Assembly: GCA_033764955.1 (NCBI GenBank)
Contig: JANRIL010000038.1
Coordinates: 32,001-96,000 of the forward strand
DNA length: 64,000 nt
Direction: 5' to 3'
Source: Cyanobacteriota bacterium
GTDB taxonomy: Bacteria; Cyanobacteriota; Cyanobacteriia; Thermostichales; Thermostichaceae
Every line of letters starts with the position of its first letter. Position 1 is the stretch's first letter. The notes beneath the pieces were generated by a model. That model was not told the DNA's origin. It saw nothing but the letters and a program-made list of their open reading frames with translations, and did not search any database. This document shows, one piece after another, positions 964-40,175 of this stretch. Made by a program: the position numbers and the translations under genes.

Positions 964-1761
964 ATGCGTCCTGCTGTTTTCCCTTGTCTGGCTGTCGTTG
1001 CTGCGATTTTGCTGGTTTTAGGACTAGCTCCGTCCCTTGTTCTTTCTCAAGAGCCGACGGAACTACTGATCTCTGCTGGGGCGAGTTTGAAAGATGCCCT
1101 CAGCGATATTCAAACGCTTTATCAACAGGAACAACCCCAGGTGAAGTTGACCTATAACTTTGGAGCATCGGGATCCCTCAAGCAACAAATTGAGCAGGGT
1201 GCTCCTGTGGATGTCTTTATCTCAGCCGCCCCTCAACCTCTCGCTGATCTGGAAGCCAAAGGGCTTATTTTAGAAAACACCCGCCACAATTTATTGAGCA
1301 ATCGTCTGGTGGTTGTGGTTCCGACTCAAGCGACTGGAGGAAGGGATCCCATCACTACGCTGGCAGATTTGCAACGCCCCGATATTGAGCGCATTGCCAT
1401 GGGGGAACCCAACAGTGTTCCAGCAGGGCAGTATGCCGAACAAGCGATTGCTTCCTATCAACTGACAGAAGCCCTTAAGCCTAAATTAATTTATGCCAAA
1501 GATGTCCGGCAGGTTTTGAGCTATGTGGAAACAGGGAATGTGGATGTAGGGTTTGTCTATATCACCGATGCCAAAGTTTCCCCGCAGGTCAGGGTGGCCT
1601 TCGAGTTGCCGCCGGAGTCCCACAGTGCAATTGTTTATCCGATGGCGGTCATCAAAACCAGCGAGCATCCCACACTAGCCCAAGCCTTTGTGGAATTTTT
1701 GCTGGAGGATGCTGAGGTGCAGGCGATTTTTCAGAAATATGGCTTTCGTGCCCCCGACTAA
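964..1761 (+). CDS. modA: Molybdate ABC transporter substrate-binding protein
   Basis: Signal peptide; SAGASLKDA, NFGASGSLKQQIEQGAPVDVFISA, SVPAGQYA, DVRQVL motifs. Confidence 0.95.
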   Translation: MRPAVFPCLAVVAAILLVLGLAPSLVLSQEPTELLISAGASLKDALSDIQTLYQQEQPQVKLTYNFGASGSLKQQIEQGAPVDVFISAAPQPLADLEAKGLILENTRHNLLSNRLVVVVPTQATGGRDPITTLADLQRPDIERIAMGEPNSVPAGQYAEQAIASYQLTEALKPKLIYAKDVRQVLSYVETGNVDVGFVYITDAKVSPQVRVAFELPPESHSAIVYPMAVIKTSEHPTLAQAFVEFLLEDAEVQAIFQKYGFRAPD

Positions 1762-1781
1762 GCCAAGGTCTATCATCAATT

Positions 1782-1867
1782 CGATAACGTTCCCGACCAG
1801 CAGCGGCAGATAACCTTGAACTCAGCACCAGCGGTTCTCGTCCGTCCGCACCAACGCAGTGTTGGGC
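1782..1867 (-). mobile_element. Integron attC-like recombination site (attC1)
   Basis: Minus strand reads GCCCAAC-actgcg-TTGGTGCGGAC...GCCGCTGCTGG-tcgggaac-GTTATCG (86 bp), beginning 7 bp after the vapC stop; R''/L''/L'/R' layout. Confidence 0.75.
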
Positions 1868-1874
1868 TGCGCTG

Positions 1875-2258
1875 CTACAAGACGCTAACTAAGTAGGCAC
1901 GAACAGCTGCATCTACTGTAGCAATGGTCAAACCGTTTTGTAATGCCTGACAGATGAGCATTCTGTCAAACGGATCACGATGCAATGGTGGCAGTTTAGG
2001 CAGTTGAATCACACTGCTTTCATCAAGAGCAAGGCTGGCAATTTGATGAAGGTCACGTTGCTTAGGTAAATATATTTCGGGAGGTTCTGGCAGGGGTAAC
2101 TTGCCCAACTGGTACTTGACAATTGCTTCCCAGATTGAAACTGAACTCAGATAGGCTTCGTTGTCTGGATCACGAATCGCATCCCGAACGTCCGTTGATA
2201 ACTGAATGTCACCGCTAATGAACCATAAGAAAATATGCGTATCTAGCAAAATTCTCAT
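1875..2258 (-). CDS. vapC: PIN-domain (VapC family) toxin
   Basis: MRILLDTHIFLW...SSVSIWE...HRDPFDRMLICQA...TIATVD. Real start is the ATG at 2258, which overlaps the antitoxin stop (ATGA). Confidence 0.92.
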   Translation of the reverse strand: MRILLDTHIFLWFISGDIQLSTDVRDAIRDPDNEAYLSSVSIWEAIVKYQLGKLPLPEPPEIYLPKQRDLHQIASLALDESSVIQLPKLPPLHRDPFDRMLICQALQNGLTIATVDAAVRAYLVSVL

Positions 2259-2491
2259 TTGCCCTCGAATGCGTTGAGCAGATCTTCCGGTAAAGAAGCG
2301 TCGAAATCGTCTGGAACAGTAAACTCGCCTGCACATAAACCAAATGGTCGTAATTGCTTACTATTGACAACAGGTTTAAGTTCAGCAATCGGCTTGTTAG
2401 ATCTAAAAATGACAAGCGTCTCGCCCGCCTCTACTTGATTCAGATACTTAAGAGGATCGCGCTGAATATCATCAACCGTTACATTCAACAT
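2255..2491 (-). CDS. Phd/YefM family antitoxin
   Basis: LNQVEAGETLVIFRSNKPIAELKP...RPFGL...VPDDFDASLP; directly upstream of the PIN toxin. Confidence 0.9.
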   Translation of the reverse strand: MLNVTVDDIQRDPLKYLNQVEAGETLVIFRSNKPIAELKPVVNSKQLRPFGLCAGEFTVPDDFDASLPEDLLNAFEGK

Positions 2492-2547
2492 TGGCTTGCC
2501 TCAATACAACTCGACATATACATCAAAATCCAAAGCAGTGAAACATT

Positions 2548-3039
2548 TCAAAGCTTCTCTAAGTAAAGAGTTTTGATCTGAAATGCAACTTTTCTAGCCT
2601 GAATCAAGGGTATTGGATAGCCAATTGTGTTGTACCCTTTATTGGCTACACTTCTTTCTTTGAGAGACTTCTGTAATTCCCAAACCAAAGCCCTTAGCTT
2701 TCCTGGTTTGAAGGCAATAATTTCCTGCTCTGGTATGAGAAAGATCCAGTAATCGGCTTGTGAACTCCACCCCCATCCTGGAATAAGCTCCTTGTCATTT
2801 GAAACAGTTTCAAAGAAAAGGTTGCCTGTTCGTTTAGCAGCCATGTCAAATTTGTACTCAATCGTGATGACTGATCCATCTAGACGTGTAACGACTCGAT
2901 CAATCCCTGATTGTTGGTACTTCAGATCTTCAGAAACATCCAGCACCTTATAAGTAGAGGATAACCATTGGTCTAGGAATGTTTCGCCTTCCTGCCCAAC
3001 TTTGCGCTGAGTGTGAAAATCGTACTGTCTAGTTTGCAT
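2548..3039 (-). CDS. PD-(D/E)XK superfamily nuclease (putative)
   Basis: GQEGE...GID...IEYK catalytic-type motifs followed by TGNLFFE...GW. Probable start is the ATG at 3039, overlapping the upstream ORF end (the track starts at 3072). Confidence 0.7.
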   Translation of the reverse strand: MQTRQYDFHTQRKVGQEGETFLDQWLSSTYKVLDVSEDLKYQQSGIDRVVTRLDGSVITIEYKFDMAAKRTGNLFFETVSNDKELIPGWGWSSQADYWIFLIPEQEIIAFKPGKLRALVWELQKSLKERSVANKGYNTIGYPIPLIQARKVAFQIKTLYLEKL

Positions 3040-3256
3040 AGATGTAAGGGATGTAGAGTTGAACATCATCATTGCCTTCTCGCCGTATGGGAATCCCTGC
3101 CCACCGTGTCACCCAATTTACTAACGCTCTCAAGGAACTAGCTCGACGAGGATTTGTGGTTCCTCCGCAATCACCCAAACTCACCGCAGAAATGATCTCT
3201 TGGATTAACTCTTTGGTAAGTTCTTTGTCACCACGAGTTGTTTCTTCAATGATCAT
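3029..3256 (-). CDS. C-terminal segment of the winged-helix (DUF7226-like) protein, split from 3253-3897
   Basis: TTNPRRASSLRALVNWV resembles the terminal ST..RRAST...W motif of restriction-associated wHTH domains; it joins the upstream ORF by a -1 shift at 3268-3274. Confidence 0.6.
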   Translation of the reverse strand: MIIEETTRGDKELTKELIQEIISAVSLGDCGGTTNPRRASSLRALVNWVTRWAGIPIRREGNDDVQLYIPYIYAN

Positions 3257-3897
3257 TTGAATCGGGTAAAACCCAACAAAGCTTCTGCTAGAAGACGCTC
3301 ACGAGTCTCTGAATCATTGCTCTGAGCAATTCGTTGACCTCGCTCCGTCAAAACATAAGTGCTTGTAGATTGCTTTTCAATTTGACACCGACTAGCAAGA
3401 CCAATCTCAATAATAGGTCGCCCAAGATAGTCACCTCTCCTTGCCAGATCTTTATCTTTCTTTGCACCACTACCAAATGCAATACCTAAATCTTTCGGAG
3501 TGTTGATTCCACAATGAATTAATTCAACAGTTCTGATAAATTTATGCGGATCACCGATTTGGGGAATGTAGACGGGTTGATCCTCACCACTGCGAAGATC
3601 TTGCTCTAGAGCAGTTCTCCAATCGATTGAGTGAGACATCTGTTTGAATTCATAGAATCTGATCTCTTTCCTGGCAACATCGACAGTATAAGTAATCTGG
3701 AAGGTTCGCCCTGTGATTTCATAGACTAATTCTGTAATACCTGGCTTTATTCCACAGCTAGCTCCTTTGACTTCACCACATTGTTTGAGAGTCTCTAGAA
3801 CAGGAGAAAGTTCTTGCTCCAATTCAGCATCCCAAAATGCGTTTCTATCGAAAAACGTTGATTTAACTTGATAATCGAAATACGTAAACCTGTACAC
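3253..3897 (-). CDS. RelE/ParE-like N-terminal domain fused to a winged-helix (DUF7226-like) domain
   Basis: GTG start with AAGGAG RBS at 3905-3910. N-term ELVYEITGRTFQITYTVDVARKEIRFYEF (RelE-like beta strands); C-term IPQ...RRGDYL...IGL...YVLTERGQRI...RERLLAEALL. Confidence 0.55.
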   Translation of the reverse strand: MYRFTYFDYQVKSTFFDRNAFWDAELEQELSPVLETLKQCGEVKGASCGIKPGITELVYEITGRTFQITYTVDVARKEIRFYEFKQMSHSIDWRTALEQDLRSGEDQPVYIPQIGDPHKFIRTVELIHCGINTPKDLGIAFGSGAKKDKDLARRGDYLGRPIIEIGLASRCQIEKQSTSTYVLTERGQRIAQSNDSETRERLLAEALLGFTRFK

Positions 3898-3918
3898 TTT
3901 ATCACTCCTTAAGTTGAA

Positions 3919-4314
3919 TCAGATCTGAATTTCAGAAGGAAGAAATAAAACTTTATCGGCATCACCGATCAGCGGTAGTGAAAGGTGATGAGTGAAACGA
4001 GGCGATACGAATGCAACAACTCGTCTTTTGTGAAACGTTAAATAGATACAGTCCGTACCTCCCAGAAGCTTTTCCCATGCTTCGGTTAACTGGTCCCGGA
4101 ACTCAGTCAGAGGAACTTCTTCACTTTTCTGAACACTAATTTCGCTGTCTCCAGAATTAAGTTCATCAATATCTTGAAGAGGAAGCAGGAAAGCTGCCAC
4201 TTCTCCATAATGAGTACACACAATGCGTAAGTTACCCGACTGAACCTGTCGCCTAAGTTTTGGCAGTTTGACCCGTAACTCTGACATTGGGATTTGCTTA
4301 AAACGTTTGTTCAT
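3919..4314 (-). CDS. Tandem-duplicated Phd/YefM-like protein
   Basis: Two Phd-like repeats: QIPMSELRVKLPKLRRQVQSGNLRIVCTHYGEVAAFLLP and EVPLTEFRDQLTEAWEKLLGGTDCIYLTFHKRRVVAFVSP. Confidence 0.65.
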   Translation of the reverse strand: MNKRFKQIPMSELRVKLPKLRRQVQSGNLRIVCTHYGEVAAFLLPLQDIDELNSGDSEISVQKSEEVPLTEFRDQLTEAWEKLLGGTDCIYLTFHKRRVVAFVSPRFTHHLSLPLIGDADKVLFLPSEIQI

Positions 4315-4340
4315 GTTTACCAGCCCTATCCCTACACCTC

Positions 4341-4369
4341 ATAATGGCAAGGAATTTATTAACTGTCAA
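4341..4369 (-). promoter_or_regulatory. Sigma70-type promoter inside the cassette
   Basis: Minus strand TTGACA-17 bp-CATTAT with TG at the extended -10 position, 26 bp upstream of the 4314 start. Confidence 0.65.
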
Positions 4370-4522
4370 TAGTGTATCACGTTTTTTACATTTTTAGTCC
4401 AAACATCACTGAAATTAGTGCTTTTGGGGGTTTAGATTTTAAGGTGAGAGATGGCTTGAGGTGGCTAAATCCAGAACTCTAGCAGGGAATGCTCAGGCTG
4501 CTGCCCCACCGAGAACTAAGCA

Positions 4523-4610
4523 GCCCAACGGCTAGGGTCAGCGGCGGCGAAAAAAAATAGGCCGCACTGTGAGAGATCTCTGCGCTGTCCGCTGCACCAA
4601 CGTGTTAGGC
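4523..4610 (-). mobile_element. Integron attC-like recombination site (attC2)
   Basis: Minus strand GCCTAAC-acgttg-GTGCAGCGGAC...GCCGCCGCTGAC-cctagcc-GTTGGGC (88 bp); matches RYYYAAC...GTTRRRY with paired inner boxes. Confidence 0.85.
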
Positions 4611-4688
4611 ATGGCAAAGCTGGACTGGACAAAACATGGGAAAACTCGATCGACTCATCGCTAAAAATATTAAACCACGATCGTGTAA

Positions 4689-4785
4689 TATAGCGATGTG
4701 CAGTCGTATGAGGTAGACAAGCATGGGCTACAATCTAACCTGGCAAAGGATTTTACTGTACCTCTCGCCAGCGAATACCGCCATA
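4689..4785. repeat. Degenerate TATAGC-ended inverted-repeat element
   Basis: Left arm tatagcgatgtgcagtcgtatgaggtaga versus reverse complement of the right arm tatggcggtattcgctggcgagaggtaca (18/29 identical). Confidence 0.45.
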
Positions 4786-4825
4786 AATCGATATCACCCA
4801 ACACAGAAATATATATTCTGATTCT

Positions 4826-5113
4826 TCAGTGCCGTGCGAACCAGTATGGAACCTCAGCATTATGAGCTTCCCATAAGTTTTGACATGCAAAATTGATGAA
4901 TTCACATGCAACTTCGTGTGCTGACATATCTTTAGGTATTTGTTCTGCGGCATAGAAAGCGTCGTCCATATTAATCAGCGTGCCAGTCGCAGAGAAAATG
5001 TGTCTACGTTCTTTAGGGTCTTCTCGTAGAGATAGATTTATTGTGTTGACAATCAAAGTGGTTTGAACTTCTGTTATGAATTGAAACTTTTTCCATTCGA
5101 ACTCATTATTCAT
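4826..5113 (-). CDS. Hypothetical protein, probable integron-cassette ORF
   Basis: 95-aa AT-rich ORF upstream of, and co-oriented with, attC2. Confidence 0.6.
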   Translation of the reverse strand: MNNEFEWKKFQFITEVQTTLIVNTINLSLREDPKERRHIFSATGTLINMDDAFYAAEQIPKDMSAHEVACEFINFACQNLWEAHNAEVPYWFARH

Positions 5114-5148
5114 TTTTCTTTAGATTTTGTGATTATTGAAACTGTTGC

Positions 5149-5276
5149 ATATAGCAATCCTATAAGAGTTGTGAAAGCTAGGATCCCTGAGGGATCCCCC
5201 CGCCCTATCGGGCACCCCCCTTAGCAAGAGGGGCTTGGGGGGATCGGTTTTCACGAATCATTTAGGCTTGCTATAT
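5149..5276. mobile_element. MITE-like element with 28-bp imperfect terminal inverted repeats and a GC-rich internal hairpin
   Basis: atatagcaatcctataagagttgtgaaa versus reverse complement of the right end atatagcaagcctaaatgattcgtgaaa (23/28); internal C-run/G-run palindrome. Confidence 0.7.
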
Positions 5277-5469
5277 AAAGTTGGTAAGCTTGATTACCGC
5301 CATTCTCATTAAAAAATTTCTTAACTCGGTCTAAAGATACATATAGATAATCCTTACACAAACCACATGGAAGTTGGCTAGGTTGACTACTTCCTAACAC
5401 ATGGTATGGCTGGCTCTGTGGATTACGCCCTGCATTACATGCTGGACATGGAAACTGATCCTGATTCAT
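5251..5469 (-). CDS. Small putative zinc-binding protein
   Basis: Two CxxC motifs (CPAC, CGLC); its stop codon lies inside the MITE arm. Confidence 0.5.
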   Translation of the reverse strand: MNQDQFPCPACNAGRNPQSQPYHVLGSSQPSQLPCGLCKDYLYVSLDRVKKFFNENGGNQAYQLYIASLNDS

Positions 5470-5950
5470 AGAGTAGCTTGATTACAAAGTGAGCAGACAA
5501 CTACTTATTGCTTTTGCACATGAGTCTAGCCATGTATTATACGGAAAATTTCTGGGTAATACAATCAATGGGCATGTTATCCCGATTTGCTCCGGCTAAG
5601 CTTCTTTGAAGCATGTTATGCCAAAATATCCAATGTTTTGTTTCGAGACCAGTAGCTAGGGTCAAGGAAAGCAAAGTATAAATACTTGGGTTTTTAGATA
5701 GAGATAGCCAGCTATCACCCAGAAAATTGCTTGACTACGTGCGTGATGTGATGTCAACCATTACTTCTATCAGGCTGAGATGGCTGATGTGCAATGGATG
5801 TTTCATTCTGTACCTATTGAACGCTATTCCAGGATGCGGCGGGATGAAGAGAGGGATCCCTTGCGGATGAGCTATGACTCCTCAGCACGCAAGAAAGGTG
5901 GAGGCATTGCATCCAGAATCCGATTATTCGCTTTAAATTGATGACCTGTC

Positions 5951-6724
5951 TTAGCGCAGTTGATAGCTGAGGGTATAGGATCCCAGCGCGGGATCCTCAT
6001 AGGCATTGACGCGAATGGTGTAGTCGCCGGATTGTTCCAAATAAATCGCTAAAAGAGCATCGGATCCCCCCCCTTGGTCATCATCTTGTCCAATCACATC
6101 CCCCTGTGCATTCACTACCTGCACAAACGCATCGAACTCAGCACTGGCTAGTTTAACCAGTAGGGTTTGTCGGGCTTTGCCACTGATCGGATATTCATCC
6201 ATCCAGGTTTGGTCGTCGGGATGTTGGGCATCGCCTTCGGTTAGGGATCCCGTCAGTTGGGTTTCCCACTCTACATCCCCTAGGCTGTAGCTGAGTTGAT
6301 AGTCCCCTGTGGCTTGCGGGTCAAACGTGGTGGCGCGGATCGTATAGGTGCCCGCTTCCGGTAGCTGTACCGCCAAAAAAGCATGGACATCGGGTCCTGC
6401 ATCGTCATTAAAGGCGATAATTTCCCCTTGACTATTGAGCACCTCCAGATAGGGATCAACATCGCTACTTTCCATCCCCACCATCAAGATTTGTCCGGCG
6501 CTGGCTTGAATAGGAATGGTATCCCCATAGGTTTCATCGGCGGGGTTGAAGGGATCCCCGACCACTAAGCTGCCCGTCAGGGTTTGGCTGCCCCGATAAA
6601 ACATCGTCGCATCCGTCTCAAAAGCAGGCAATCCTCCACATCCCACCACGGTTATCCCTGCTGTCAATAGAGTTAGATATAGATATCGCCACCCCAACAT
6701 TGGTCTCATCATCCTCCCTCCCAC
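5951..6724 (-). CDS. Lipoprotein with two PPC-like (pre-peptidase C-terminal) domains
   Basis: VVGC lipobox; repeated D.YL.V.N..G..I..(N/D)DD.G...A.L...L...G.YTIR motif. Confidence 0.75.
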   Translation of the reverse strand: MGGRMMRPMLGWRYLYLTLLTAGITVVGCGGLPAFETDATMFYRGSQTLTGSLVVGDPFNPADETYGDTIPIQASAGQILMVGMESSDVDPYLEVLNSQGEIIAFNDDAGPDVHAFLAVQLPEAGTYTIRATTFDPQATGDYQLSYSLGDVEWETQLTGSLTEGDAQHPDDQTWMDEYPISGKARQTLLVKLASAEFDAFVQVVNAQGDVIGQDDDQGGGSDALLAIYLEQSGDYTIRVNAYEDPALGSYTLSYQLR

Positions 6725-8314: not shown

Positions 8315-9082
8315 ATGATGCAGCAGATTTTACGGCGATTGGATCCGGTGGATGCGGCGTGGGTGCGGCAGGAGATGGCGGCGATTGATCAGAGAATTGG
8401 GGAGCGTCGAGAGGAAGTTGGTTCGTTTCAGCTTATTACTTCCGATATTTTTTTTGCCGCTCTGGGAGATTGGCTGCAACAACTTCGTTCGATCGACCAA
8501 CGATTACTAAATGCCAACCAGCTTAACCAGGTGCTTGATTCGGAGTGGGCTGTTACCGAATTACTGCAAGCAGATTCCTTAAAGGTTCGTGGAGTGATCG
8601 ATCATCAGGGAGTTTTGCAGTCTGCGGCATCTGTCGAAGCGGATGCAGGGGCATTGCGGATTCAGTGGCTTGCGACCGCCCCTCAAAATTTAATCTATTT
8701 AGAAAATCCAGATCGTCTTGCAGGTGCTAGTCGAGCGCTAATGTTGTATTTGGTTAAAGAAAGTCAGGATTTAGGGTTTCAGGGCAGGATAGAATTGGTA
8801 TCACTAGAAACTTCGATCGAGTTTTACCGTAAATTGGGATTTTCCCAGCGAGGTGGATTGCTTTCTCTCGATCCTGAAAACGCCCAAAGCCTGCTTGATC
8901 AATACGGAGACACGGTAATGTTTGCCAAATTTGATACAGAAGAGCTTGATCGTTTGGAAGCTGAGTCTGGAGCGGTTTTGGCAGTGCCAGATCAAGATGC
9001 TTTGCGACGGAGGGATGACTATAAGGCAAAGCGCATGGCGGAAATCGAGACCCAAAAACAGGAATCTGCCACTGATCAATAA
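8315..9082 (+). CDS. GNAT acetyltransferase domain (C-terminal extension of the broken MuF protein)
   Basis: LRIQWLATAPQN...AGASRALMLYLV...GFQGRIELVSLETSIEFYRKLGF is GNAT-like. Confidence 0.7.
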   Translation: MMQQILRRLDPVDAAWVRQEMAAIDQRIGERREEVGSFQLITSDIFFAALGDWLQQLRSIDQRLLNANQLNQVLDSEWAVTELLQADSLKVRGVIDHQGVLQSAASVEADAGALRIQWLATAPQNLIYLENPDRLAGASRALMLYLVKESQDLGFQGRIELVSLETSIEFYRKLGFSQRGGLLSLDPENAQSLLDQYGDTVMFAKFDTEELDRLEAESGAVLAVPDQDALRRRDDYKAKRMAEIETQKQESATDQ

Positions 9083-9559
9083 ATGGTCAAGCTCATCACC
9101 ACCGTCACTGATACTCGGCTCCAGCAACTTTTTGACCGGATCGACAATACCCTACGCAGCCCTCAGCCCCTCTACAAAGCCTGGGCTAATCACCTTGAAT
9201 CCCGTGTGGTCAATGCTTTCAAGCAAGAAACCTCTCCCGCAGGTCAAGCATGGCCGGAACTGAAGCCTGCCACCATCCGCCGCAAAAACCGGAACTCTTC
9301 CAGCCTCAACAAAAAGCTGCGAGACACCGGAACTCTCTATGACTCGATAGCCGCTCGTGCGCTGCCCGATGGTGGGGTCGTTGGCACCAATCAACGAGTG
9401 GGATCCTACAGTCTGGGTGCAATCCATCAATACGGCGCACCACAGCGAAATATCCCCTCCAGGCCATTTTTGCCTGTCGATCTTAATGGTGATCTGCTCT
9501 CTCAGAATGTTGAAGAATTGATCCAGTTGACTCAAGACTGGCTGAATTTGCAGCCTTAA
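9083..9559 (+). CDS. Phage virion morphogenesis protein (Mu gpG-like)
   Basis: F..ETSPAGQAWPELKPATI...LRDTGTLYDSI...VGTN...AIHQYG...IPSRPFL; follows the gpF remnant as in Mu gene order. Confidence 0.9.
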   Translation: MVKLITTVTDTRLQQLFDRIDNTLRSPQPLYKAWANHLESRVVNAFKQETSPAGQAWPELKPATIRRKNRNSSSLNKKLRDTGTLYDSIAARALPDGGVVGTNQRVGSYSLGAIHQYGAPQRNIPSRPFLPVDLNGDLLSQNVEELIQLTQDWLNLQP

Positions 9560-12395: not shown

Positions 12396-15300
12396 TCAGC
12401 CATCTTCTCCATCGCCAGCCGCCGGATAGCTCAATTCTTGCGGTAGGTTCACCGAAAAGCAGGTTTCACCCAGTTGACTGGTTACCCAAATTTGACCTTG
12501 CATCTGCTCCGTTAAATGCTTGATCAGGGCTAATCCTAAACCTGTGCCCCCCTGTTTCCAGCGATCCCCATTCGGGATCCGATAAAACTTGTCGAAAATA
12601 CGCCCAATTTCACTGTTGGGAATTTCGACTCCGCTATTGCGAACTTGGAATAAAAACCGTTGGGCTTGATGGCGAATCGCCAGTTCAATGTGGGCGGAGG
12701 GAGGGGAATATTTACAGGCATTATTTAACAGTTCCGCCAGGATCCGCCCCAAGCTGGTTCGATCGGTCAAAATCATCGATTCTTGCCCCGTCAGTTGCCA
12801 GCTTAGATGCTGCTGCCGTTGTTGCAAGCGAGATTCAAAGGGTTTGAGCAAAACCGGGATCCACTCCAGCAGATCAATCCATTCCCCGTTAAATGGGTGG
12901 GATCCCCCTTCTAGTCGTTGCAGATCCAGCAAGTCGTTGATAAGTTCCGTTTCCCGCAAACATTCATCCTGCAAAATTTGTAGATAGCGCATCACTTTTG
13001 CTGCCCAGGCCTGTTGGGTATCGATATCAGAAAGTGACAACTTGAGCATATGAATCCCCATTTTCATGTTGGCCATGGGTGTGCGTAGTTCATGGGAAAC
13101 TGTACTTAAAAAATCATCCTTGAGCAGATTGAGTTGCTGCAACTCTTGCATTTTTCCTTTCAGTTTTAATTCCGCTTGTTTGCGTTCCGTAATATCAAAG
13201 GCCGTGCCCAAAATGGCGGGTTCCCCCTTAAAGCGGATCAATCCAGTTGTACAATCTAGCCATTTTTCTTCCCCTGTTTTGGTGACAATTTGAAACTCTT
13301 GATGAAAGGATTCGACCCGCCCTTGTAGTGTAGATTGAGCCTGGGCGCGGGCGGTCGCATACAGCGCTTTGGGAAGAAGTTTCCAGAAGGGCATCTGCAA
13401 CAATTCTTCTCGCTCATAGCCCGTGATCCGACTAGAGGCCACATTCACATCCAAAAAATGGTGGCGAAAGATAAAAATAGCGGAGGTGGCGGTTTCGGCC
13501 AAAATCCTGAACTTTTCTTCACTTTCCCGCAGAGCATCTTCCGCCTGTTTGCGCTGGGTGATATCCATGCTGATGCCAATGCCCCCCAAGACATTCCCCT
13601 CCCCATCCCGCATGGGCGAAAGCTCCACAAACACACGCTTGGCTGATTCCGTTCCGCCGCCTGTCTCCTCCAGCGCGGACAATCGGGGAGACTCGGCTTC
13701 TTCCTCCGGCAAAAGGGATCCCGGCGGCAAAATGGGGTAAACCGTCAACTCCCCTGACCACTTTTCTCCTTGGGCAAGGGCTTGTTTAACCTCCGGGATC
13801 TGCTGAGAGGCAAAAGGAATCACATCCTCCAAAAATTCCCCCAGAGCCGCCGCTTCCGAAAGCCCATACAGTTTTTGGGCATAGGCATTCCAATAAATCA
13901 CCTGTCCCGACAAAGCGGTTGCCACCACGGCGTTATCGACGGTATCCAGCAGTTGCGCCTGCAATTTGAGGGCGGCCACCTGCTTGTTCAGTTGAGCCGT
14001 GCGAACCCTGACTTTCCGCTCCAGTTCATCATTGAGGGATTGCACCTGCTGATAAAGTTGAGCCTGCTGAATGGCAATTTCGACCTGAGTAGCCAGCTTT
14101 TCCAGCAAACTTTTTTCGTGATCCTCCCAGTAGCGAGTATCCCGACATTGATGCGCCACCAACAGTCCCCACACTCCACCCTTTTGAAAGAGGGGTACGA
14201 CCAGATGGGCTTTCACCAGTAATCGCTGCTGGAGAAAACTAGCCAGAGGAGGGGAAAGGGTTTGTTCACGGATATCAGAAATGGCACGCACTCCCCCATG
14301 TCGATAGAGGCTGTTTAGGTGGTTAAACCAATCCCGCTTGACAACTTGACCCAGGGCTTTCGGCCAGTTGGCCGCCACTGCCTCAGCAATGATCATCCCA
14401 TCCCCATTGGCTTGAAATTCATAGACTAGGACCCGATCCACCTGAAGCAGTTGGCGCACCTCCGCCGTCGTGGTTTGGAGAATTTCCCTGAGATTGAGGG
14501 AGCGACGAATGCGGAGGGCAATTGCCGTCATCACCTGTTCTCGCTCTGCTTGTCGGTGCTGCTGGGTTTCTGCCCGTTTGCGTCCGGTCATATCCCGCAC
14601 GACAGCCAGAGCCTGCTCCTCTTCACAAACCACTAGACGGGCTTCAAATTCTTTCTTGTCCAATCCGAACATCAGTTGATATTCAAAGATCTGCATATCC
14701 CCTGTGTCGAGGGTGGTCTGGATGTGCCGCAAAAAGGTCTGAGCCACATCCACCGGCAAGACCTGCTCCAGGCGTTGTCCGATCAGGTTGGGGGCAGGCA
14801 ACAGCAGCAGTTTGCTATCCCCGCGACAGTCCAGGTATTCTCCACTGCGGCTAAAGCGAAACATCAAATCGGGGGTGGCATTGAGGATCGCGGTATTGCG
14901 GGCTTCACTCTGGCGCAGGGCGGCTTCCGTTTGTTTGTGTTGGGTGATGTCGCGGAAGGTAACCACGACCCCACTAATCTGGGACTCCGCATCTCGAATT
15001 GGGGCGGTACTGGCGGAAATAAATCGTTCACAGCCGGTTTTGCTGATCAAAAGGGTATGGCGGGGTAGACCGATCACCTGCTGTTGCTGCATCACCTGCC
15101 CCACCAGATCAGGGGGAACGTGGCGAGTTTCTGCATGGACAATCTGGAGGACTTGCGACAGGTGTTGCCCTATGGCCTCAGCGGGATCCCATCCCGTAAG
15201 ATGGGCAGCCACCGGATTGAGTTGCTGAATGTGCCCTTGCCGATCGGTGGTGATGACCCCATCCCCAATACTGGCTAGGGTGATGGCTAACCGCTCTTTT

Positions 15301-19502: not shown

Positions 19503-20206
19503 CGGTTGCTTCCCCCTATTCTCAAGGTTTTACGATGGTTCAGGTGCCTGATTTTCCTCCTATCTCCCTATTATTGGTGGATGATCAGATAATCATTCGT
19601 CAAGGATTACGTAGCCTCCTTGAATCCCAAACCGATTTTCGGGTTGTGGGTGAAGCGGACAACGGACAAACGGCTATTGAGCAAACCCACTTACTCCGTC
19701 CCGATTTGGTGTTGATGGATATCCGTATGCCAGGAGTGGATGGGGTGGCAGCCACCCGTGCTATTTGTGAAGCTGGATTGTCCAGCAAAATTCTGGTTTT
19801 GACAACATTTGACCATGATGAATATGTTTGGCAGGCGATGCGCTGGGGAGCGAAAGGATATCTTCTCAAAGATACGCATCCCGAAATCTTGGCTCAGGCA
19901 ATCCGGCATGTCCATCAAGGTCACACACAAATGGGGCCAGGACTGTTTGAAAAGTTATTACAGGGATCCCTAGCCCCGGCTCCGGCTCTTCCCCCGATTG
20001 AGCTACCCCCCGGCTGGTCAGAATTAACGGCACGGGAGCGGGAAGTGTTGGAGTTGATAGCGAAGGGATCCAGCAACCGCGAGATTGCTCACGCCCTCTA
20101 TATCTCAGAAAAAACTGTGAAAAATCATGTTACCAGCATTCTGGGGCGACTAGGCTTGCGGGATCGCACCCAGGCGGCTTTACTGGCTCGTTCCCTCCTC
20201 CCCTGA
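19499..20206 (+). CDS. NarL/LuxR-family response regulator
   Basis: LVDDQ...LMDIRMP receiver; LTAREREVL...SEKTVKNHV LuxR HTH. Confidence 0.95.
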   Translation: MTVASPYSQGFTMVQVPDFPPISLLLVDDQIIIRQGLRSLLESQTDFRVVGEADNGQTAIEQTHLLRPDLVLMDIRMPGVDGVAATRAICEAGLSSKILVLTTFDHDEYVWQAMRWGAKGYLLKDTHPEILAQAIRHVHQGHTQMGPGLFEKLLQGSLAPAPALPPIELPPGWSELTAREREVLELIAKGSSNREIAHALYISEKTVKNHVTSILGRLGLRDRTQAALLARSLLP

Positions 20207-21057: not shown

Positions 21058-22713
21058 ATGCGTGGATTTTTAGGTTGGAATCAGTTAACAGCCGTGGCAG
21101 CCGTGGTGGTTGCTGGCAGCTTGACCCCTATCCCCAGTTGGGCACAACTGAGTGATATCAACACCTATTGGGGATCCCAATATATCTCCAGTCTGGCGAA
21201 TCAACAGGTGATCGGCGGCTTTCCCGATGGCACTTTTCGTCCCAACGATCAGGTGACCCGTGCCCAGTTCGCCACCATTGTTACCAAAGCCTTCGGTCTC
21301 GATACCAATGTTCCGCCCAGGTCCTTTGTGGATCCCATCCCCAGTTGGGCAGCTCCTTCCATTAATGCCGCTGCGGCAGCTAATTTTGTCTCAGGCTTTC
21401 CCGATGGTACCTTTCGTCCCAACGATGTCTTGACACGGGCACAGGCCATTACCGTTTTGACCAAAGCAGCGGGAGTAACTTCGATTGATCCAGCTCAGGT
21501 GGAATCAGTGCTGAGTATCTATACCGATCAGGGATCCATCCCTAACTTTGCTCGTCCCCCCGTTGCCACCGCCACCCTAGAAAGTTTGCTGGTTCTCTAT
21601 CCCAACCCCAATTTCATCAATGCCACCGCCGTTGCTACTCGTGGAGAAGTAGCCGCCCTCACCTATCAAGCCTTGGCAAAAGCCGGACGAGTTCCCAATT
21701 TACCCCCCCCAGTGGGAGCAACCATCCCAGGAGGATTAACTACTGGCATCGGAGAAACTGTGGCGACCCCCACGCCAGAGGTACCGGTAGAAACCCTGGC
21801 TGGTGCCCCCACTGTGTCTGAGATCTTTACCCGCGACAACCTGAGCACCCTCAAACCGGGCGATACGATCACCGTATTTGTGGTGGGATCCCCTGGGGCA
21901 ACGGGTACCTTCTCCATTCCCGGCATTGTAGAAAACTTACCCCTCCAGGAAAGCCGCACCGGTCAGTATGAAGGCAGTTATACCTTCCGCACCCAAGACA
22001 GAGCGGCCAAGACCTCCATCATTGCCCGTCTGGAGCAATCTGGACTCGTGACCACCAGCCAGTTGCCGAACCAAACCATCACTATCGGGCAGGTGACGGA
22101 TGCCGTTTTTCCCACCATCAGCAAGCTTTCCCCCCCCCCTAATAGCACGGTGACGGATGCAGCTCCAGAAATTTCTGGGGAATTTAGCGATGACAAAGGC
22201 ATCGACCTGAATAGTTTTGTTTTGACAGTCAATAACCGCGATGTCACTCGCCAAGCCCAGCTCAGCAAAAACTCCTTCCGGTTTAAGCCGTCTCAACCCC
22301 TTCTCAAACGACGGCCTGTGGTAGTCACGTTACAAATTGCTGACACCAGTGGCAATACAGCCCTCCAAGAATGGGCTTTTACAATCGAAACCTCTAGCGC
22401 ACCTGCGCCTACTGCAACACCTACTCCCCCACCTGCACCCACTGCAACACCTACTCCCCCACCTGCGCCCACTGCAACACCTACTCCCCCACCTGCGCCC
22501 ACTGCAACACCACCTGCGCCGACTGCAACACCTACTCCCCCACCTGCGCCTACTGCAACGCTTACGCCTACCCCTGAGGCTGCTGCCACTCCATCAACAA
22601 CAGAGCCAACACCGACCACGGCTGAAACCACACCAGCAGTAGAGGTTACTCCAACCCCTGAAGCTCCTGCCCCGGATGCCACTAGCCCCGCACCGCCAAC
22701 CGCCAGTCCTTAA
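21058..22713 (+). CDS. S-layer homology (SLH) domain protein with Pro/Thr-rich tail
   Basis: Signal peptide; GFPDGTFRPN...TRAQ twice and ATRGEVAA; Ig-like middle; probable ATG 21058 with GAGG RBS. Confidence 0.88.
   Translation: MRGFLGWNQLTAVAAVVVAGSLTPIPSWAQLSDINTYWGSQYISSLANQQVIGGFPDGTFRPNDQVTRAQFATIVTKAFGLDTNVPPRSFVDPIPSWAAPSINAAAAANFVSGFPDGTFRPNDVLTRAQAITVLTKAAGVTSIDPAQVESVLSIYTDQGSIPNFARPPVATATLESLLVLYPNPNFINATAVATRGEVAALTYQALAKAGRVPNLPPPVGATIPGGLTTGIGETVATPTPEVPVETLAGAPTVSEIFTRDNLSTLKPGDTITVFVVGSPGATGTFSIPGIVENLPLQESRTGQYEGSYTFRTQDRAAKTSIIARLEQSGLVTTSQLPNQTITIGQVTDAVFPTISKLSPPPNSTVTDAAPEISGEFSDDKGIDLNSFVLTVNNRDVTRQAQLSKNSFRFKPSQPLLKRRPVVVTLQIADTSGNTALQEWAFTIETSSAPAPTATPTPPPAPTATPTPPPAPTATPTPPPAPTATPPAPTATPTPPPAPTATLTPTPEAAATPSTTEPTPTTAETTPAVEVTPTPEAPAPDATSPAPPTASP
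22400..22559 (+). repeat. Coding 30-bp tandem repeat (PAPTATPTPP)
   Basis: Unit cacctgcgcc(t/c/g)actgcaacacctactcccc: four full copies, one 21-bp copy and one partial. Confidence 0.9.
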
Positions 22714-24830: not shown

Positions 24831-25271
24831 TTATTCCACAAAATAAAAACTCATCAAAAACAGGAACCCCACCGTCAACCCCAAAAAGATCAGCAGATTT
24901 TTCTGAGCAGGAGTCATGACATTGACGCCTAGCCCATACCCCAGATTTTCCTGAAACCCAGAGGGCTTGCCTTTGGCTCCCACCGCCTCAAATTGGGTGG
25001 CATCTGCCGAACATACCGGACAACGCCAACCTTTGGGCAGATTCATAAACGGGATCCCGGCTGGAATTTGACCCTGTTGATCTCCCTTAAGTGGCTCGTA
25101 GATATAGCCACAGGAGCGGCATTCATAGCGCAACATCCGCGCCGGGTCACTCCATTCCGCATCGGTGGCGTCTTCTGCTAACTCGATAATGGGAGGCTCG
25201 GTGGGCAGAGGCTCCGCCACCGGATCAAGCTCCTGACTAGCCATAGCCGGGGATCCCTTCCGAAAAAACAC
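24831..25271 (-). CDS. rubA: Membrane-anchored rubredoxin
   Basis: YECRSCGYIYEP...WRCPVC, GFQENLGYGLGVN, C-terminal TM; adjacent to ycf48. Confidence 0.93.
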   Translation of the reverse strand: MFFRKGSPAMASQELDPVAEPLPTEPPIIELAEDATDAEWSDPARMLRYECRSCGYIYEPLKGDQQGQIPAGIPFMNLPKGWRCPVCSADATQFEAVGAKGKPSGFQENLGYGLGVNVMTPAQKNLLIFLGLTVGFLFLMSFYFVE

Positions 25272-25452
25272 TTCTGTCCTGAGTCTTATTATGAGTGGCT
25301 TCGTTACAAAAATCTACTTGATTCGTCGAATTTTGATAAATCTGAGAGGATAGAGGCTAGGTTACCTGACCAAACTTCAGGGCTTCTACAGAGCTTTACA
25401 GAGAGCAGAGCCGTTTCGTCTGGCTATCCCCGACCCTATATGGCGACTAACT

Positions 25453-39312: not shown

Positions 39313-40175
39313 GGTAGTGCCCCTGGAGTAATGAGACTATTTACTTGGGGTTCTTCCATTTCTTATCTGAGCCATGTTTACCTGCCCAAACTGTCATTCT
39401 TCTAACTTTGTTAAGCAAGGCAAAACCCATAATAAAAAACAACGATATAGATGCCATGATTACCATAGGCAGTTTACTCCTAACTCCACTCAGAAAGTCA
39501 TTTCGGATGCGGGTAGATCTTTAGCGGATAAACCCTTGCTAGAACGACTTTCTATCGCAGCCATATCTCGGATAACAGACATCTCAGAATCATAGCTATA
39601 AAACTATATCAATCATAGGTTTGCTTATACGTCTCAAATCATGGAGATTTATTCCAAGCTTACGGTAGGCTGACGCCAACAAAAAAGGCACGTTGTTCGC
39701 GTTAGCGTCTTTTCCTGTAATGCGATGCTCGTGCAGCTTGGCGTAGCCATTACTGTGGTCGTTTGTGGGATCCAAAGACAATCAACAATAGCTCTGGATT
39801 GTCATGGAGAAAGAGACTCGAATAGTCGTAGCCGCTTCTATCGGATCCAGAACCAGAGAAAGTGTAAAAGGGTTATGGAAGAGACTGCTAAAAATCTGGA
39901 AAAATAATAGTAAGTTCTATACCGGTTTCTGGAAATCTTATCAAAAATTTATTCCTAAAAATCAGTATGAAGCTGTTGGTAAAGAAACAGGGAAACCCTC
40001 TCTAATTGTTCGCGTAGCTTGGCGTACCCATAACGATTAACCAACACCCTTAGACAGAGGATTGGAAGGCTAGCAAGAAAAACTCTATTCTTTTCCAAAA
40101 TGCTGGAGAACCGTATTGGGATGATCTTCAACTTTTTGCATCACTACCATGCATCATTACTTGCATAGGACTACC
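39313..40175 (+). mobile_element. Degenerate IS1-family insertion sequence
   Basis: Terminal IRs GGTAGTGCCCCTGGAGTAATG / reverse complement GGTAGTCCTATGCAAGTAATG; InsA-like CPNCHS...KQGK...QRYRC; InsB-like fragments (ETRIVVA, AVGKETG, RLARKTLFFSK) broken by stops and frameshifts. Confidence 0.85.

What the first reader, a model, noticed from the sequence alone, without database searches (positions are those of the whole stretch)
1782..4610. Integrase-less integron cassette (CALIN-like) with perfectly complementary ends
Seen: two 86-88 bp attC-like palindromes. The R'' end of attC1 (GTTGGGCTGC, 1861-1870) is the exact reverse complement of the R' side of attC2 (GCAGCCCAAC, 4520-4529). That is what is expected if 1789-4528 was once one circular cassette whose attC was split on integration. 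No tyrosine recombinase is present in the 64 kb. A 2.7-kb cassette with five genes is large compared with the usual single-ORF cassette (established).
Basis: partly seen in the sequence, partly recalled or inferred. Interest (0 to 1): 0.75.

Follow-up and report, generated by a model that had tools for sequence, protein, structure and literature searches.

The report
Decayed integron remnant in a cyanobacterium
Two genuine integron recombination sites in a cyanobacterial chromosome bracket one five-gene mobile cassette, apparently left behind when the integron lost its integrase gene; this is a known kind of element, well preserved but ordinary.

Summary
Sites at 1783-1867 and 4523-4610 are real attC sites. 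A covariance model built only from five sites on other cyanobacterial plasmids finds both (54.7 and 43.9 bits, E 1.8e-14 and 4.9e-11) and nothing else in the 64 kb. On Kovacikia minuta plasmid pB the same site family forms an array beside a bona fide integron integrase.

The + strand is the attC bottom strand. It carries two bulged bases, C and T, six base pairs apart on the arm opposite AAC. The cassette genes therefore lie in the normal orientation, on the minus strand.

The 10-nt complementarity (GTTGGGCTGC / GCAGCCCAAC) is the cassette signature. In Kovacikia arrays 10 of 13 neighbouring site pairs match at 6-7 of 7 variable positions, against 13 of 98 non-neighbours.

Cassette 1789-4528 (2,740 bp) holds five genes:
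- phd-vapC;
- a Phd-like gene;
- a frameshifted DUF7226 gene with a RelE-like N-terminal fold;
- a PD-(D/E)xK nuclease.

The locus is decaying. attC1 keeps only 7 of 12 L-stem pairs, no intact tyrosine recombinase is present, and a probable intI N-terminal stub lies at 5709-5800.

It is a CALIN-type integron remnant: a new member of a known kind, of low to moderate interest.

The parts
1783..1867 (+). attC1, the last site of the array; the + strand is the bottom strand. R' is (c)GATAAC at 1783-1789 and R'' is GTTGGGC at 1861-1867. Bulged bases are C1852 and T1845. The site is decayed: 15 of 22 consensus pairs, L stem 7 of 12.
   Evidence: CM R1 54.7 bits, E 1.8e-14. Pair counts. blastn relatives on 12 cyanobacterial plasmids.
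4523..4610 (+). attC2; the + strand is the bottom strand. R' is GCCCAAC at 4523-4529 and R'' is GTTAGGC at 4604-4610. Bulged bases are C4595 and T4588. It keeps 20 of 22 consensus pairs and an L stem of 12 of 12. Its central part is unlike the rest of the family.
   Evidence: CM R1 43.9 bits, E 4.9e-11. Pair counts. No blastn relatives on plasmids.
1789..4528 (-). Cassette B, 2,740 bp, five genes, read on the minus (top) strand. Its first bases (TTGGGCTGC on the minus strand, inside the R box of attC2) are complementary to the R'' side of its own attC1.
   Evidence: 10 of 10 complementarity. The rule was validated on Kovacikia arrays. GC is 0.39-0.45 against 0.51 for the window. The region lacks the host's iterated palindrome.
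1875..2258 (-). vapC, a PIN-domain toxin of 127 aa.
   Evidence: PF01850 E 4e-11, 44 bits against a cut-off of 23.6. 81% identical to the annotated VapC of the Leptolyngbya BL0902 plasmid.
2255..2491 (-). phd/yefM-type antitoxin of 78 aa.
   Evidence: PF02604 at 19.4 bits, below the cut-off. 81% identical to the annotated Phd/YefM antitoxin in L081.
2548..3072 (-). PD-(D/E)xK-fold nuclease of 174 aa, with D58, E72 and K74 invariant in 32 sequences.
   Evidence: Model pLDDT 84. Foldseek hits I-Ssp6803I at E 7e-4, then Hjc, PvuII and RecU. Alignment. 124 relatives, those named being cyanobacterial.
3029..3897 (-). DUF7226-family gene (289 aa in relatives), broken by a frameshift near 3268-3280 into ORFs 3253-3897 (214 aa) and 3029-3256 (75 aa). 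The N-terminal ~90 residues have a RelE/YoeB-like fold.
   Evidence: tblastn of P0121 gives 90% identity (residues 1-210) and 95% (207-289) in two frames. 88 relatives, most of 289 aa with PF23871. Model of relative P0121 has pLDDT 82.6. Foldseek gives RelE/YoeB at E about 0.01 and TM(target) 0.59-0.67, none at or below 0.001.
3919..4314 (-). Phd/YefM-like protein of 131 aa, the likely antitoxin partner of the DUF7226 protein.
   Evidence: PF02604 E 2.6e-6, 27.5 bits, just below the cut-off of 29.8. Complex model score 0.75 against a best control of 0.06.
4341..4369 (-). Promoter-like site inside the cassette (TTGACA, 17 nt, TG-n-CATTAT), 27 nt upstream of the 131-aa gene.
   Evidence: Consensus scan, 10 of 12 matches. 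The number of sites in the region is not above shuffles (13 against 9.1 +/- 3.4).
4611..5700 (-). Low-GC remains of the cassette(s) next to the integrase. It holds ORFs 4826-5113 (95 aa) and 5251-5469 (72 aa) of no known family. No attI junction was found.
   Evidence: GC 0.39-0.42. No Pfam, NCBIfam, PADLOC or PHROG match. No 10-mer with 5 or more of 7 positions complementary to the R'' of attC2.
5709..5800 (+). Probable stub of the integron integrase gene: codons ~2-34, one frameshift, no start codon, the rest missing.
   Evidence: It is the best tblastn hit of the Kovacikia IntI in the window (residues 2-16 and 18-33 in two frames, joint E 0.13). The two fragments are the top 2 of 2,750 six-frame fragments for an HMM of 110 IntI sequences (E 2.5 and 3.2; HMM positions 3-17 and 18-34).
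964..1761 (+). Left flank: a chromosomal solute-binding protein gene, modA-like by my reading.
   Evidence: PF13531 E 9e-62.
5951..6724 (-). Right flank: a PPC-domain protein gene at host GC.
   Evidence: PF04151 E 4.7e-9. GC 0.53.

Best explanation
The locus is the stump of a cyanobacterial chromosomal integron. IntegronFinder would most likely call it a CALIN, a cluster of attC sites lacking an integrase.

Layout, read on the minus (top) strand from right to left:
- a truncated intI stub (5709-5800, pointing away from the cassettes);
- about 1.1 kb of degraded first-cassette DNA;
- attC2;
- one complete 2,740-bp cassette (4528 down to 1789);
- attC1;
- then the chromosome (modA).

How it got there. 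The cassette was inserted as one circle by IntI-mediated recombination of the folded bottom strand, which here is the + strand. The crossover lay inside the AAC/GTT triplet of the R box; that position is recalled from the integron literature. This is why the R'' side of attC1 is perfectly complementary to the R' side of attC2.

Cargo. The cargo is self-stabilising. It holds a phd-vapC toxin-antitoxin pair and a conserved module made of a Phd-like protein, a DUF7226 protein with a RelE-like N-terminal fold, and a PD-(D/E)xK nuclease. The cassette may carry its own promoter.

Present state. The element cannot move on its own. intI is gone, the attI junction is not recognisable, the L stem of attC1 has lost 5 of 12 pairs, and one cargo gene is frameshifted.

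Shown: family membership, structure, strand, cassette signature, gene content. Inferred: the history, the present immobility, and that the stub is intI.
For: 1. Family and integrase link.
- blastn of site 1 finds intergenic relatives on 12 cyanobacterial plasmids, plus 2 weak non-cyanobacterial hits at E 0.8.
- On Kovacikia pB the relative at 19983-20068 lies 2.2 kb from a gene annotated as integron integrase. That gene scores 468 bits on TIGR02249 against a cut-off of 265. It is divergent from minus-strand cassette genes.
- Further same-strand sites lie at 14808, 15400, 16219 and 18715 (the last weak, E 0.34). Kovacikia pA has 11 same-strand sites.

2. Independent model. CM R1 was built from 5 sites outside the window. 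It finds exactly the two window sites. It finds nothing at E <= 1 in 140 kb of cyanobacterial and other loci, and nothing above 17.2 bits in 1.39 Mb.

3. Structure.
- RNAalifold on the 5 sites gives 22 pairs, 7 with compensatory changes.
- On 21 aligned sites, 87.4% of cells pair against 72.8% in shuffles (0 of 500 shuffles reach it). 15 of 22 pairs change on both sides, and slid controls give 48% or less. That alignment was fitted to the model.

4. Canonical attC features. AAC and GTT are invariant or nearly so. The unpaired spacer is 5 nt on one arm and about 4 on the other. All 21 sites have a bulged C and a bulged T on the arm opposite AAC, separated by a 6-bp stem. Nivina 2016 (passages) describes this for the bottom strand: extrahelical bases opposite the AAC arm, a conserved last T, a 6-bp spacing, and a spacer of 5-6 nt.

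5. Gene orientation. Genes lie on the top strand immediately before the site in the window, Nostoc, Scytonema and Kovacikia pB.

6. Cassette signature.
- The window pair matches at 7 of 7 variable positions.
- In Kovacikia arrays 10 of 13 neighbouring pairs score 6-7.
- Non-neighbours average 3.9, with 13 of 98 at 6 or more and 4 of 98 at 7.
- The same rule locates the attI junction in pB (22040-22049, 211 bp before the intI start) and in pA.

7. Foreign origin. GC is low. The window's largest gap free of the host palindrome GGGATCC runs 1343-5181; 10.3 sites are expected there, P about 3.5e-5.

8. Decay.
- attC1 keeps 7 of 12 L-stem pairs.
- The DUF7226 gene is frameshifted.
- No PF00589 match in 66 ORFs.
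- The intI stub.
- Kovacikia pA likewise keeps only a 22-aa intI stub beside its array.
Against: - Neither site folds better than shuffled sequence when unconstrained.
- Site 1 breaks 7 of 22 consensus pairs, and its R' (cGATAAC) does not fit RYYYAAC.
- The first bulged base is C, not the usual G.
- The intI stub is statistically weak on its own (tblastn joint E 0.13; HMM E 2.5 and 3.2). Pfam finds nothing in either frame. I had noticed the resemblance by eye before testing it.
- No attI junction was found.
- The frameshift could be a sequencing error. The cargo genes are 81-95% identical to intact relatives, so 'decayed' may overstate the case.
- IntegronFinder's own generic attC model could not be run.
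- The source genome and close relatives were not available. The best modA relative in genome contigs is 55% identical. So an intI elsewhere and an empty site stayed unchecked.
Confidence: 0.85

Rival explanations
1. A live, integrase-less cassette array. The cassette is still excised and reinserted in trans by an integron integrase encoded elsewhere in the same genome.
For: - attC2 is well formed, with 20 of 22 pairs.
- Both bulged bases are intact in both sites.
- Integron integrases are common in related cyanobacteria: all 8000 scored candidates passed E <= 1e-30, and many of the 120 listed are named as Leptolyngbya, Nodosilinea or Elainellaceae.
- The cargo is 81-95% identical to relatives, so the insertion looks recent.
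Against: - Excision needs both sites, and the L stem of attC1 keeps only 7 of 12 pairs. Its R box in the integrated state pairs at 0 of 7 variable positions.
- No intI lies in the 64 kb.
- The rest of the genome could not be searched.
Confidence: 0.2
2. The 2.7-kb unit is a fusion of two older cassettes: a vapBC cassette and a three-gene cassette. It arose when the attC between them was lost.
For: - The vapBC pair plus the right part of attC1 (window 1841-2519) occurs alone, 77% identical, on the Leptolyngbya BL0902 plasmid in a different context.
- The DUF7226 gene and the nuclease gene travel together elsewhere. 24 longest-contig lengths are shared between their two hit lists, and one pair has adjacent locus tags (HC852_06070 and HC852_06075).
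- Only 56 nt separate the nuclease stop from the phd start.
Against: - The start of the unit is complementary at 10 of 10 positions to attC1. attC1 is the vapBC-side site. The whole unit therefore last moved as one cassette.
- No attC remnant is detected inside, at E up to 10 with filters off.
Confidence: 0.3
3. The sites are not integron sites. They are another structured repeat, such as a terminator, a MITE end or an attachment site of another recombinase, and the 10-nt complementarity is chance.
For: - Unconstrained folds are not better than shuffles.
- Most plasmid relatives are solitary, with no integrase nearby in the loci fetched.
Against: - The sites sit in arrays next to a TIGR02249 integron integrase.
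- The attC geometry, including the bulged bases, is present.
- The neighbour-complementarity rule holds, and it also finds the attI junctions.
- Rfam gives no match at gathering score anywhere in the window.
Confidence: 0.03

Closest known systems
CALIN (cluster of attC sites lacking an integron integrase), as defined for IntegronFinder by Cury et al. 2016 (PMC4889954; passages read)
   Same: Two same-strand attC sites less than 4 kb apart (2,655 nt between them). No intact integrase nearby. The location is chromosomal. The paper states that cyanobacteria encode integrons.
   Different: A probable intI stub lies 1.1 kb away. The paper says 95% of CALINs are not close to a recognisable intI pseudogene. 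One of the two sites is structurally decayed.
Integron of Kovacikia minuta CCNUW1 plasmid pB (NZ_CP083584.1; locus L086)
   Same: The attC family is the same: the site at 19983-20068 scores 97.9 bits, and its right arm is nearly identical to that of attC1. The geometry is the same, with intI to the right on the + strand and cassette genes on the minus strand. Multi-gene cassettes and spacings of up to 2.5 kb also occur there.
   Different: pB has an intact intI and a recognisable attI junction followed by two direct repeats. The window has neither. pB is a plasmid and the window is chromosomal.
Canonical attC sites of mobile and Vibrio integrons (attCaadA7, VCR), as described by Nivina et al. 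2016 (PMC5027507; passages read)
   Same: - RYYYAAC and GTTRRRY ends.
- R and L boxes split by an unpaired spacer.
- Two extrahelical bases on the arm opposite AAC in the bottom strand, with the last one a conserved T and a 6-bp stem between them.
- Length within 57-141 bp.
- Counted from the 3' end of the bottom strand, the bulges fall at positions 16 and 23, the numbers the paper gives for attCaadA7. I could not see the figure to confirm where its numbering starts.
   Different: The first extrahelical base is C in all 21 sites, not the usual G. The central part is conserved across genera in most members.
Cyanobacteria-specific attC covariance model of Ghaly et al. 2021 (PMC8352920; passages read)
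   Same: The paper reports that attCs conserved within Cyanobacteria can be modelled as one taxon-specific CM. That is what my model R1 amounts to.
   Different: I could not obtain or run their model, so identity of the two families is presumed, not tested.
Toxin-antitoxin cassettes of sedentary chromosomal integrons (recalled from the Vibrio literature; no paper read here)
   Same: TA pairs with their own promoter inside cassettes, thought to stabilise arrays.
   Different: Here two TA-like modules and a nuclease share one cassette. The genes are co-oriented with the array.

Membership tests
Integron attC site | Ends RYYYAAC (R') and GTTRRRY (R'') on the bottom strand | tested here: met
   attC2 has GCCCAAC and GTTAGGC. 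attC1 has GTTGGGC, but its R' is cGATAAC (AAC only, not RYYY), as expected if the outer part comes from what lay beyond the last cassette.
Integron attC site | Imperfect hairpin with paired R and L boxes, an unpaired central spacer, and a length of 57-141 bp | tested here: met
   Lengths are 85 and 88 nt. The consensus has 22 pairs with covariation. attC2 keeps 20 of 22 and attC1 15 of 22, with an L stem of 7 of 12, which is weak. Unconstrained folds are not better than shuffles.
Integron attC site | Extrahelical bases on the arm opposite AAC in the recombined strand; last one T; 6-bp stem between the first and last | tested here: met
   C and T are bulged in 21 of 21 sites, 6 pairs apart. In the window they are C1852/T1845 and C4595/T4588. 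The first base is C instead of the usual G (Nivina 2016).
Integron attC site | Detected by an attC covariance model | tested here: met
   The family model built without the window gives E 1.8e-14 and 4.9e-11. Controls are clean. IntegronFinder's generic model was not available and was not tested.
Integron attC site | The site family is used by an integron integrase, shown by arrays next to intI | tested here: met
   Kovacikia pB has 5 same-strand sites beside a TIGR02249 integrase (468 bits), and the attI junction was found by R-box complementarity.
Integron gene cassette | The first bases of the cassette are complementary to the inner R-box half of its own attC, because the circle is cut within the R box | tested here: met
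   7 of 7 variable positions match (10 of 10 in all). The rule holds in 10 of 13 neighbouring pairs against 13 of 98 non-neighbours.
Integron gene cassette | Excision as a circle and reinsertion by IntI | not testable with these tools
   Needs inverse PCR or a recombination assay.
CALIN (IntegronFinder definition) | Two or more attC sites on one strand, less than 4 kb apart, with no integron integrase in the cluster | tested here: met
   The sites are 2,655 nt apart on the same strand. No PF00589 match in 66 ORFs. The stub at 5709-5800 is far below any profile threshold.
Complete (sedentary chromosomal) integron | Intact intI with the IntI-specific insertion, plus attI | tested here: not met
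   Only about 32 codons of a putative intI remain. No attI junction was found.
Type II toxin-antitoxin VapBC | PIN-domain toxin preceded by a small overlapping antitoxin gene | tested here: met
   PIN at 44 bits against a cut-off of 23.6. The antitoxin match is below cut-off (19.4 against 29.8). The genes overlap by 4 nt. Both are 81% identical to an annotated VapC/Phd pair. Toxicity was not tested.
RelE/YoeB-type toxin with a Phd/YefM antitoxin (the second module) | RelE-fold toxin that binds a Phd/YefM-type partner encoded just upstream | tested here: inconclusive
   Foldseek gives RelE/YoeB at E about 0.01 and TM(target) 0.59-0.67, with no hit at or below 0.001. The upstream protein matches PF02604 at 27.5 bits, under the cut-off. 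In the complex model, the median score of three runs is 0.75 and the best of 3 controls is 0.06. That mark was reached by 116 of 157 solved complexes and 2 of 215 mismatched pairs. The runs share at least 83% of contacts, and partner pLDDT is at least 82. Chain 1 was residues 1-110 of the 90%-identical relative P0121. Solved YefM-YoeB and RelBE complexes exist, so the pass may reflect likeness. Catalytic residues were not examined.

The most novel reading that the evidence does not exclude
The cargo, not the integron, may be the new thing. The three genes are a Phd-like protein, a DUF7226 protein (RelE/YoeB-like N-terminal fold plus helical domains) and a PD-(D/E)xK nuclease. They could form a previously undescribed three-component toxin-antitoxin or anti-phage module that is widespread in cyanobacteria and spreads as an integron cassette. 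A lesser point: this attC family always has C instead of G as its first extrahelical base. That would imply a cyanobacterial IntI pocket adapted to a different base.
Probability: 0.3. Interest if true: 0.5.

Novelty: new member of a known kind. Interest (0 to 1): 0.3.

Why it matters
- It is a clean, fully delimited example of how a chromosomal integron decays. The integrase is reduced to a stub, the last attC is eroding, and a multi-gene cassette is still marked by its insertion signature.
- It shows that one attC family, with an invariant C/T pair of bulged bases, is shared by plasmids and chromosomes of distant cyanobacterial genera. This points to cassette traffic among them.
- It gives a testable pair of sites, one good and one eroded, for measuring what a cyanobacterial IntI tolerates.
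- It flags a conserved uncharacterised gene module as integron cargo.
- It does not change what is known about integrons.

Tried and rejected
- Rfam at gathering score over the whole window gave no match, so there is no tRNA or known RNA at the sites. I had briefly considered a tRNA-3'-end-like attachment site because of the motif GCACCA.
- The modA scan of genome contigs, meant to find an empty site and the 10 kb upstream of the window, returned only relatives of 55% identity or less without synteny. No attC-family hit lies near modA in those loci.
- I looked for a third site to the right of attC2. GCCTAAC is absent on the + strand there, and the model finds nothing.
- I looked for the attI junction of the first cassette. 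No candidate reaches 5 of 7.
- Pfam and NCBIfam on the two frames of the putative intI stub found nothing.
- PADLOC gave no match for any of the 8 island ORFs. PHROGs matched only one family of unknown function, for the nuclease. Sequence search of the PDB gave nothing useful.
- blastn of attC2 against plasmids gave only three chance-level hits.
- The opposite orientation (+ strand as top strand, genes inverted) is rejected. The bulged bases lie opposite the AAC arm on the + strand, and genes precede the sites on the minus strand in four loci.
- A structured repeat unrelated to integrons is rejected; see the rival explanations.

Full report
**1. The observation**

The window is chromosomal cyanobacterial DNA. 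Pfam finds Ycf48, FtsH, LeuRS, pyruvate kinase, glucokinase and PGI. Its nearest plasmid matches are from Leptolyngbya and Kovacikia.

GTTGGGCTGC lies at 1861-1870 and its exact reverse complement GCAGCCCAAC at 4520-4529. The two sites also share GTCCGC..ACCAACG..GTTRRRY in direct orientation. That motif occurs nowhere else in the 64 kb.

Between and beyond the sites, GC falls to 0.39-0.45, against 0.51 for the window. The trough runs from about 1900 to 5850, so it extends past site 2.

Unconstrained folding of either strand of either site is no better than shuffled sequence. On that test alone the word 'palindromes' would have failed.

**2. What the sites are**

*Relatives on plasmids.* blastn of the island against the plasmid collection hit the core of site 1 in intergenic DNA. 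A search with site 1 alone found 14 records:
- 12 are cyanobacterial: Kovacikia, Synechocystis, Trichormus and Nostoc (two each), and Scytonema, Chroococcidiopsis, Chondrocystis and Calothrix (one each).
- 2 are weak non-cyanobacterial hits at E 0.8.

Site 2 has no such relatives.

*Link to an integrase.* On Kovacikia minuta plasmid pB the relative lies 2.2 kb from a gene annotated as integron integrase. That gene scores 468 bits on TIGR02249, against a cut-off of 265. It is transcribed away from a run of minus-strand genes.

*Shape of the family.* Five sites from outside the window are all 85-86 nt long. They align without trouble and give a consensus hairpin of 22 pairs, 7 with compensatory changes.

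*Covariance model.* A model built from those five sites finds:
- window 1783-1867 at 54.7 bits (E 1.8e-14);
- window 4523-4610 at 43.9 bits (E 4.9e-11);
- nothing else in the window below E 1.1, with filters off.

In the plasmid loci it finds same-strand arrays:
- five sites on one side of the pB integrase, one of them weak at E 0.34;
- eleven sites on Kovacikia pA.

On 1.39 Mb of unrelated loci the best score is 17.2 bits.

*Covariation.* On the 21 sites with E <= 0.001:
- 87.4% of pair cells form standard pairs, against 72.8% in shuffles (0 of 500 shuffles reach it);
- 15 of 22 pairs change on both sides;
- sliding the partner drops pairing to 48% or less.

That alignment was fitted to the model, so the counts lean towards it.

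**3. Architecture and strand**

Every one of the 21 sites has AAC near the 5' end and GTT near the 3' end of the strand shown. Each has an unpaired spacer (5 nt and about 4 nt) and an L stem. On the 3' arm sit a bulged C and a bulged T, separated by exactly six pairs.

Nivina et al. 2016 (passages read) state the following for attC sites:
- in the recombined bottom strand the extrahelical bases lie on the arm opposite the AAC triplet;
- the last one is a conserved T;
- a 6-bp stem between the first and last is needed for efficient recombination;
- the spacer is five to six bases.

So the window's + strand is the bottom strand and the minus strand is the top strand. This agrees with gene orientation. 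In the window, Nostoc, Scytonema and Kovacikia pB, a minus-strand gene ends just to the right of the site.

The one departure from the canon is C rather than the usual G as the first bulged base.

**4. The cassette signature**

A cassette circle is cut inside its R box on insertion. The far half of the R box should therefore be found at the neighbouring site.

I scored the seven variable positions next to GTT of each left site against those next to AAC of the next site to the right:

| Comparison | Result |
|---|---|
| 13 neighbouring pairs in the Kovacikia arrays | 3, 7, 2, 6, 6, 6, 7, 6, 7, 6, 6, 5, 6 (10 of 13 at 6 or more) |
| 98 non-neighbouring ordered pairs | mean 3.9; 13 at 6 or more; 4 at 7 |
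| The window pair | 7 of 7 |

One of the two low neighbour values spans an 8.7-kb gap.

The same rule picks out a single 7-of-7 decamer 211 bp before the pB intI start. It is followed by two direct repeats, so it marks the attI junction. The rule finds the equivalent decamer on pA as well.

It also means the whole 2,740 bp last moved as one unit.

**5. Cargo**

Five genes lie on the minus strand:
- **phd-vapC.** The toxin matches PIN at 44 bits. Both genes are 81% identical to an annotated pair on the Leptolyngbya BL0902 plasmid. There the homology (window 1841-2519) includes a degenerate piece of the same attC.
- **A 174-aa PD-(D/E)xK nuclease.** D58, E72 and K74 are invariant. Model pLDDT is 84. 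Foldseek gives I-Ssp6803I at E 7e-4, then Hjc, PvuII and RecU.
- **A DUF7226-family gene.** It is 289 aa in relatives. Here it is split by a frameshift near 3268-3280 into the 214-aa and 75-aa ORFs. Its N-terminal ~90 residues resemble RelE/YoeB, modestly: E about 0.01, TM by target 0.59-0.67, and no hit at or below 0.001.
- **A 131-aa Phd/YefM-like protein** (27.5 bits, under the cut-off).

*Complex model.* I modelled the 131-aa protein with residues 1-110 of the 90%-identical relative P0121.
- The median score of three runs is 0.75, and the best of three controls is 0.06.
- That mark was reached by 116 of 157 solved complexes and 2 of 215 mismatched pairs.
- The runs share at least 83% of contacts, and the partner pLDDT is at least 82.
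- Similar toxin-antitoxin complexes are solved, so this may show likeness only.

*Co-occurrence.* The DUF7226 and nuclease genes co-occur elsewhere. 24 longest-contig lengths are shared between their hit lists, and one pair has adjacent locus tags. This is a proxy, not a context analysis.

*Promoter.* A promoter-like site lies 27 nt upstream of the first gene. It is a consensus match only.

**6. Decay and the integrase**

None of the 66 ORFs of 60 aa or more matches PF00589.

Given the strand assignment, intI should lie to the right of attC2 on the + strand. Two results point to a stub there:
- The best tblastn hit of the Kovacikia IntI anywhere in the window is at 5709-5753 and 5753-5800, in two frames, covering residues 2-16 and 18-33 (joint E 0.13).
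- An HMM of 110 cyanobacterial IntI proteins was run over 2,750 six-frame fragments. It ranks these two adjacent fragments first and second, with abutting profile positions 3-17 and 18-34 (E 2.5 and 3.2).

Each score is weak. The place, strand, colinearity and rank together make an intI stub likely; I put it at about 0.7. I had seen the resemblance by eye before testing it. Kovacikia pA shows the same state, a 22-aa stub beside its array.

Other signs of decay:
- attC1 keeps 15 of 22 pairs and 7 of 12 in the L stem. Its left arm resembles one subtype of the family and its right arm another.
- No attI junction is found.
- Solitary plasmid sites (Nostoc, Trichormus, Chroococcidiopsis) are similarly eroded, at 14-16 of 22 pairs.

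**7. Foreign origin**

GGGATCC is a highly iterated palindrome in this genome. It gives 258 strand hits at 171 loci, against 16.6 hits expected. The longest stretch without it is 1343-5181, where 10.3 sites are expected (P about 3.5e-5). The next longest gap is 2,084 bp. The cassette DNA has therefore not been in this genome long.

**8. Comparison and verdict**

This is a CALIN-type remnant of a cyanobacterial integron.
- Cury et al. 2016 define CALINs and note integrons in Cyanobacteria (passages).
- Ghaly et al. 2021 built a Cyanobacteria-specific attC model (passages).

The kind, and probably the attC family, are therefore already known. I searched the paper library three times and read passages of three papers. 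I did not look for a description of this particular locus.

**Not checked:**
- IntegronFinder's own attC model;
- the rest of the source genome;
- close relatives;
- the closed metagenome and viral collections.

Noticed in passing
whole window; for example 5181-5198, 5853-5860, 5978-5996: GGGATCC(C) is a highly iterated palindrome in this genome. It gives 258 strand hits (171 loci, 2.7 per kb; GGGATCCC 87 times) against 16.6 expected. The classic HIP1 GCGATCGC occurs once. The largest gap free of it coincides with the integron cassette region.
   Followed up: partly
window 5160-5250: A small G/C-rich repeat carries two host-type GGGATCC palindromes. It sits between the two small ORFs of the degraded first cassette, inside otherwise palindrome-free low-GC DNA. 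It may be a host miniature element inserted later.
   Followed up: no
L085 (Kovacikia minuta pA, NZ_CP083583.1) 3978-25390: An array of 11 or more same-strand attC sites has a recognisable attI junction (24918-24927) and attI-like direct repeats. Only a 22-codon intI stub remains (25325-25390). It is a second decayed integron in the same organism that carries an intact one on pB. The record has no annotation.
   Followed up: partly
L082, L083, L087, L088, L089 (Nostoc, Scytonema, Synechocystis, Trichormus and Chroococcidiopsis plasmids): Each locus holds a single attC of the same family with no second site and no annotated integron integrase in the 5-40 kb fetched. Those in L082, L088 and L089 have the poorest pairing (14-16 of 22). 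They look like solitary, eroding attC sites scattered on plasmids.
   Followed up: partly
L081 (Leptolyngbya sp. BL0902 plasmid) 3940-4674: The same vapBC pair (81% protein identity) occurs with a degenerate remnant of the attC right arm, but in a non-integron context. An ATP-binding protein gene overlaps the antitoxin start. The model does not call the remnant.
   Followed up: partly
window 8315-9559: A gene of the phage virion morphogenesis family (PF05069, E 1.6e-16) follows an ORF of unknown family, 2.4 kb from the integron stump. It may be a prophage fragment.
   Followed up: no
window 39374-39595: A small ORF has an InsA-type zinc ribbon (PF03811, 24.6 bits, just under the cut-off). It is possibly an IS1-family remnant.
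   Followed up: no
L090 (Crinalium epipsammum plasmid pCRI9333.02) 3947-4888: A distant relative of the DUF7226 protein (33% identity) lies between a DEAD/DEAH helicase gene and a DNA adenine methylase gene, a defence-like neighbourhood.
   Followed up: no
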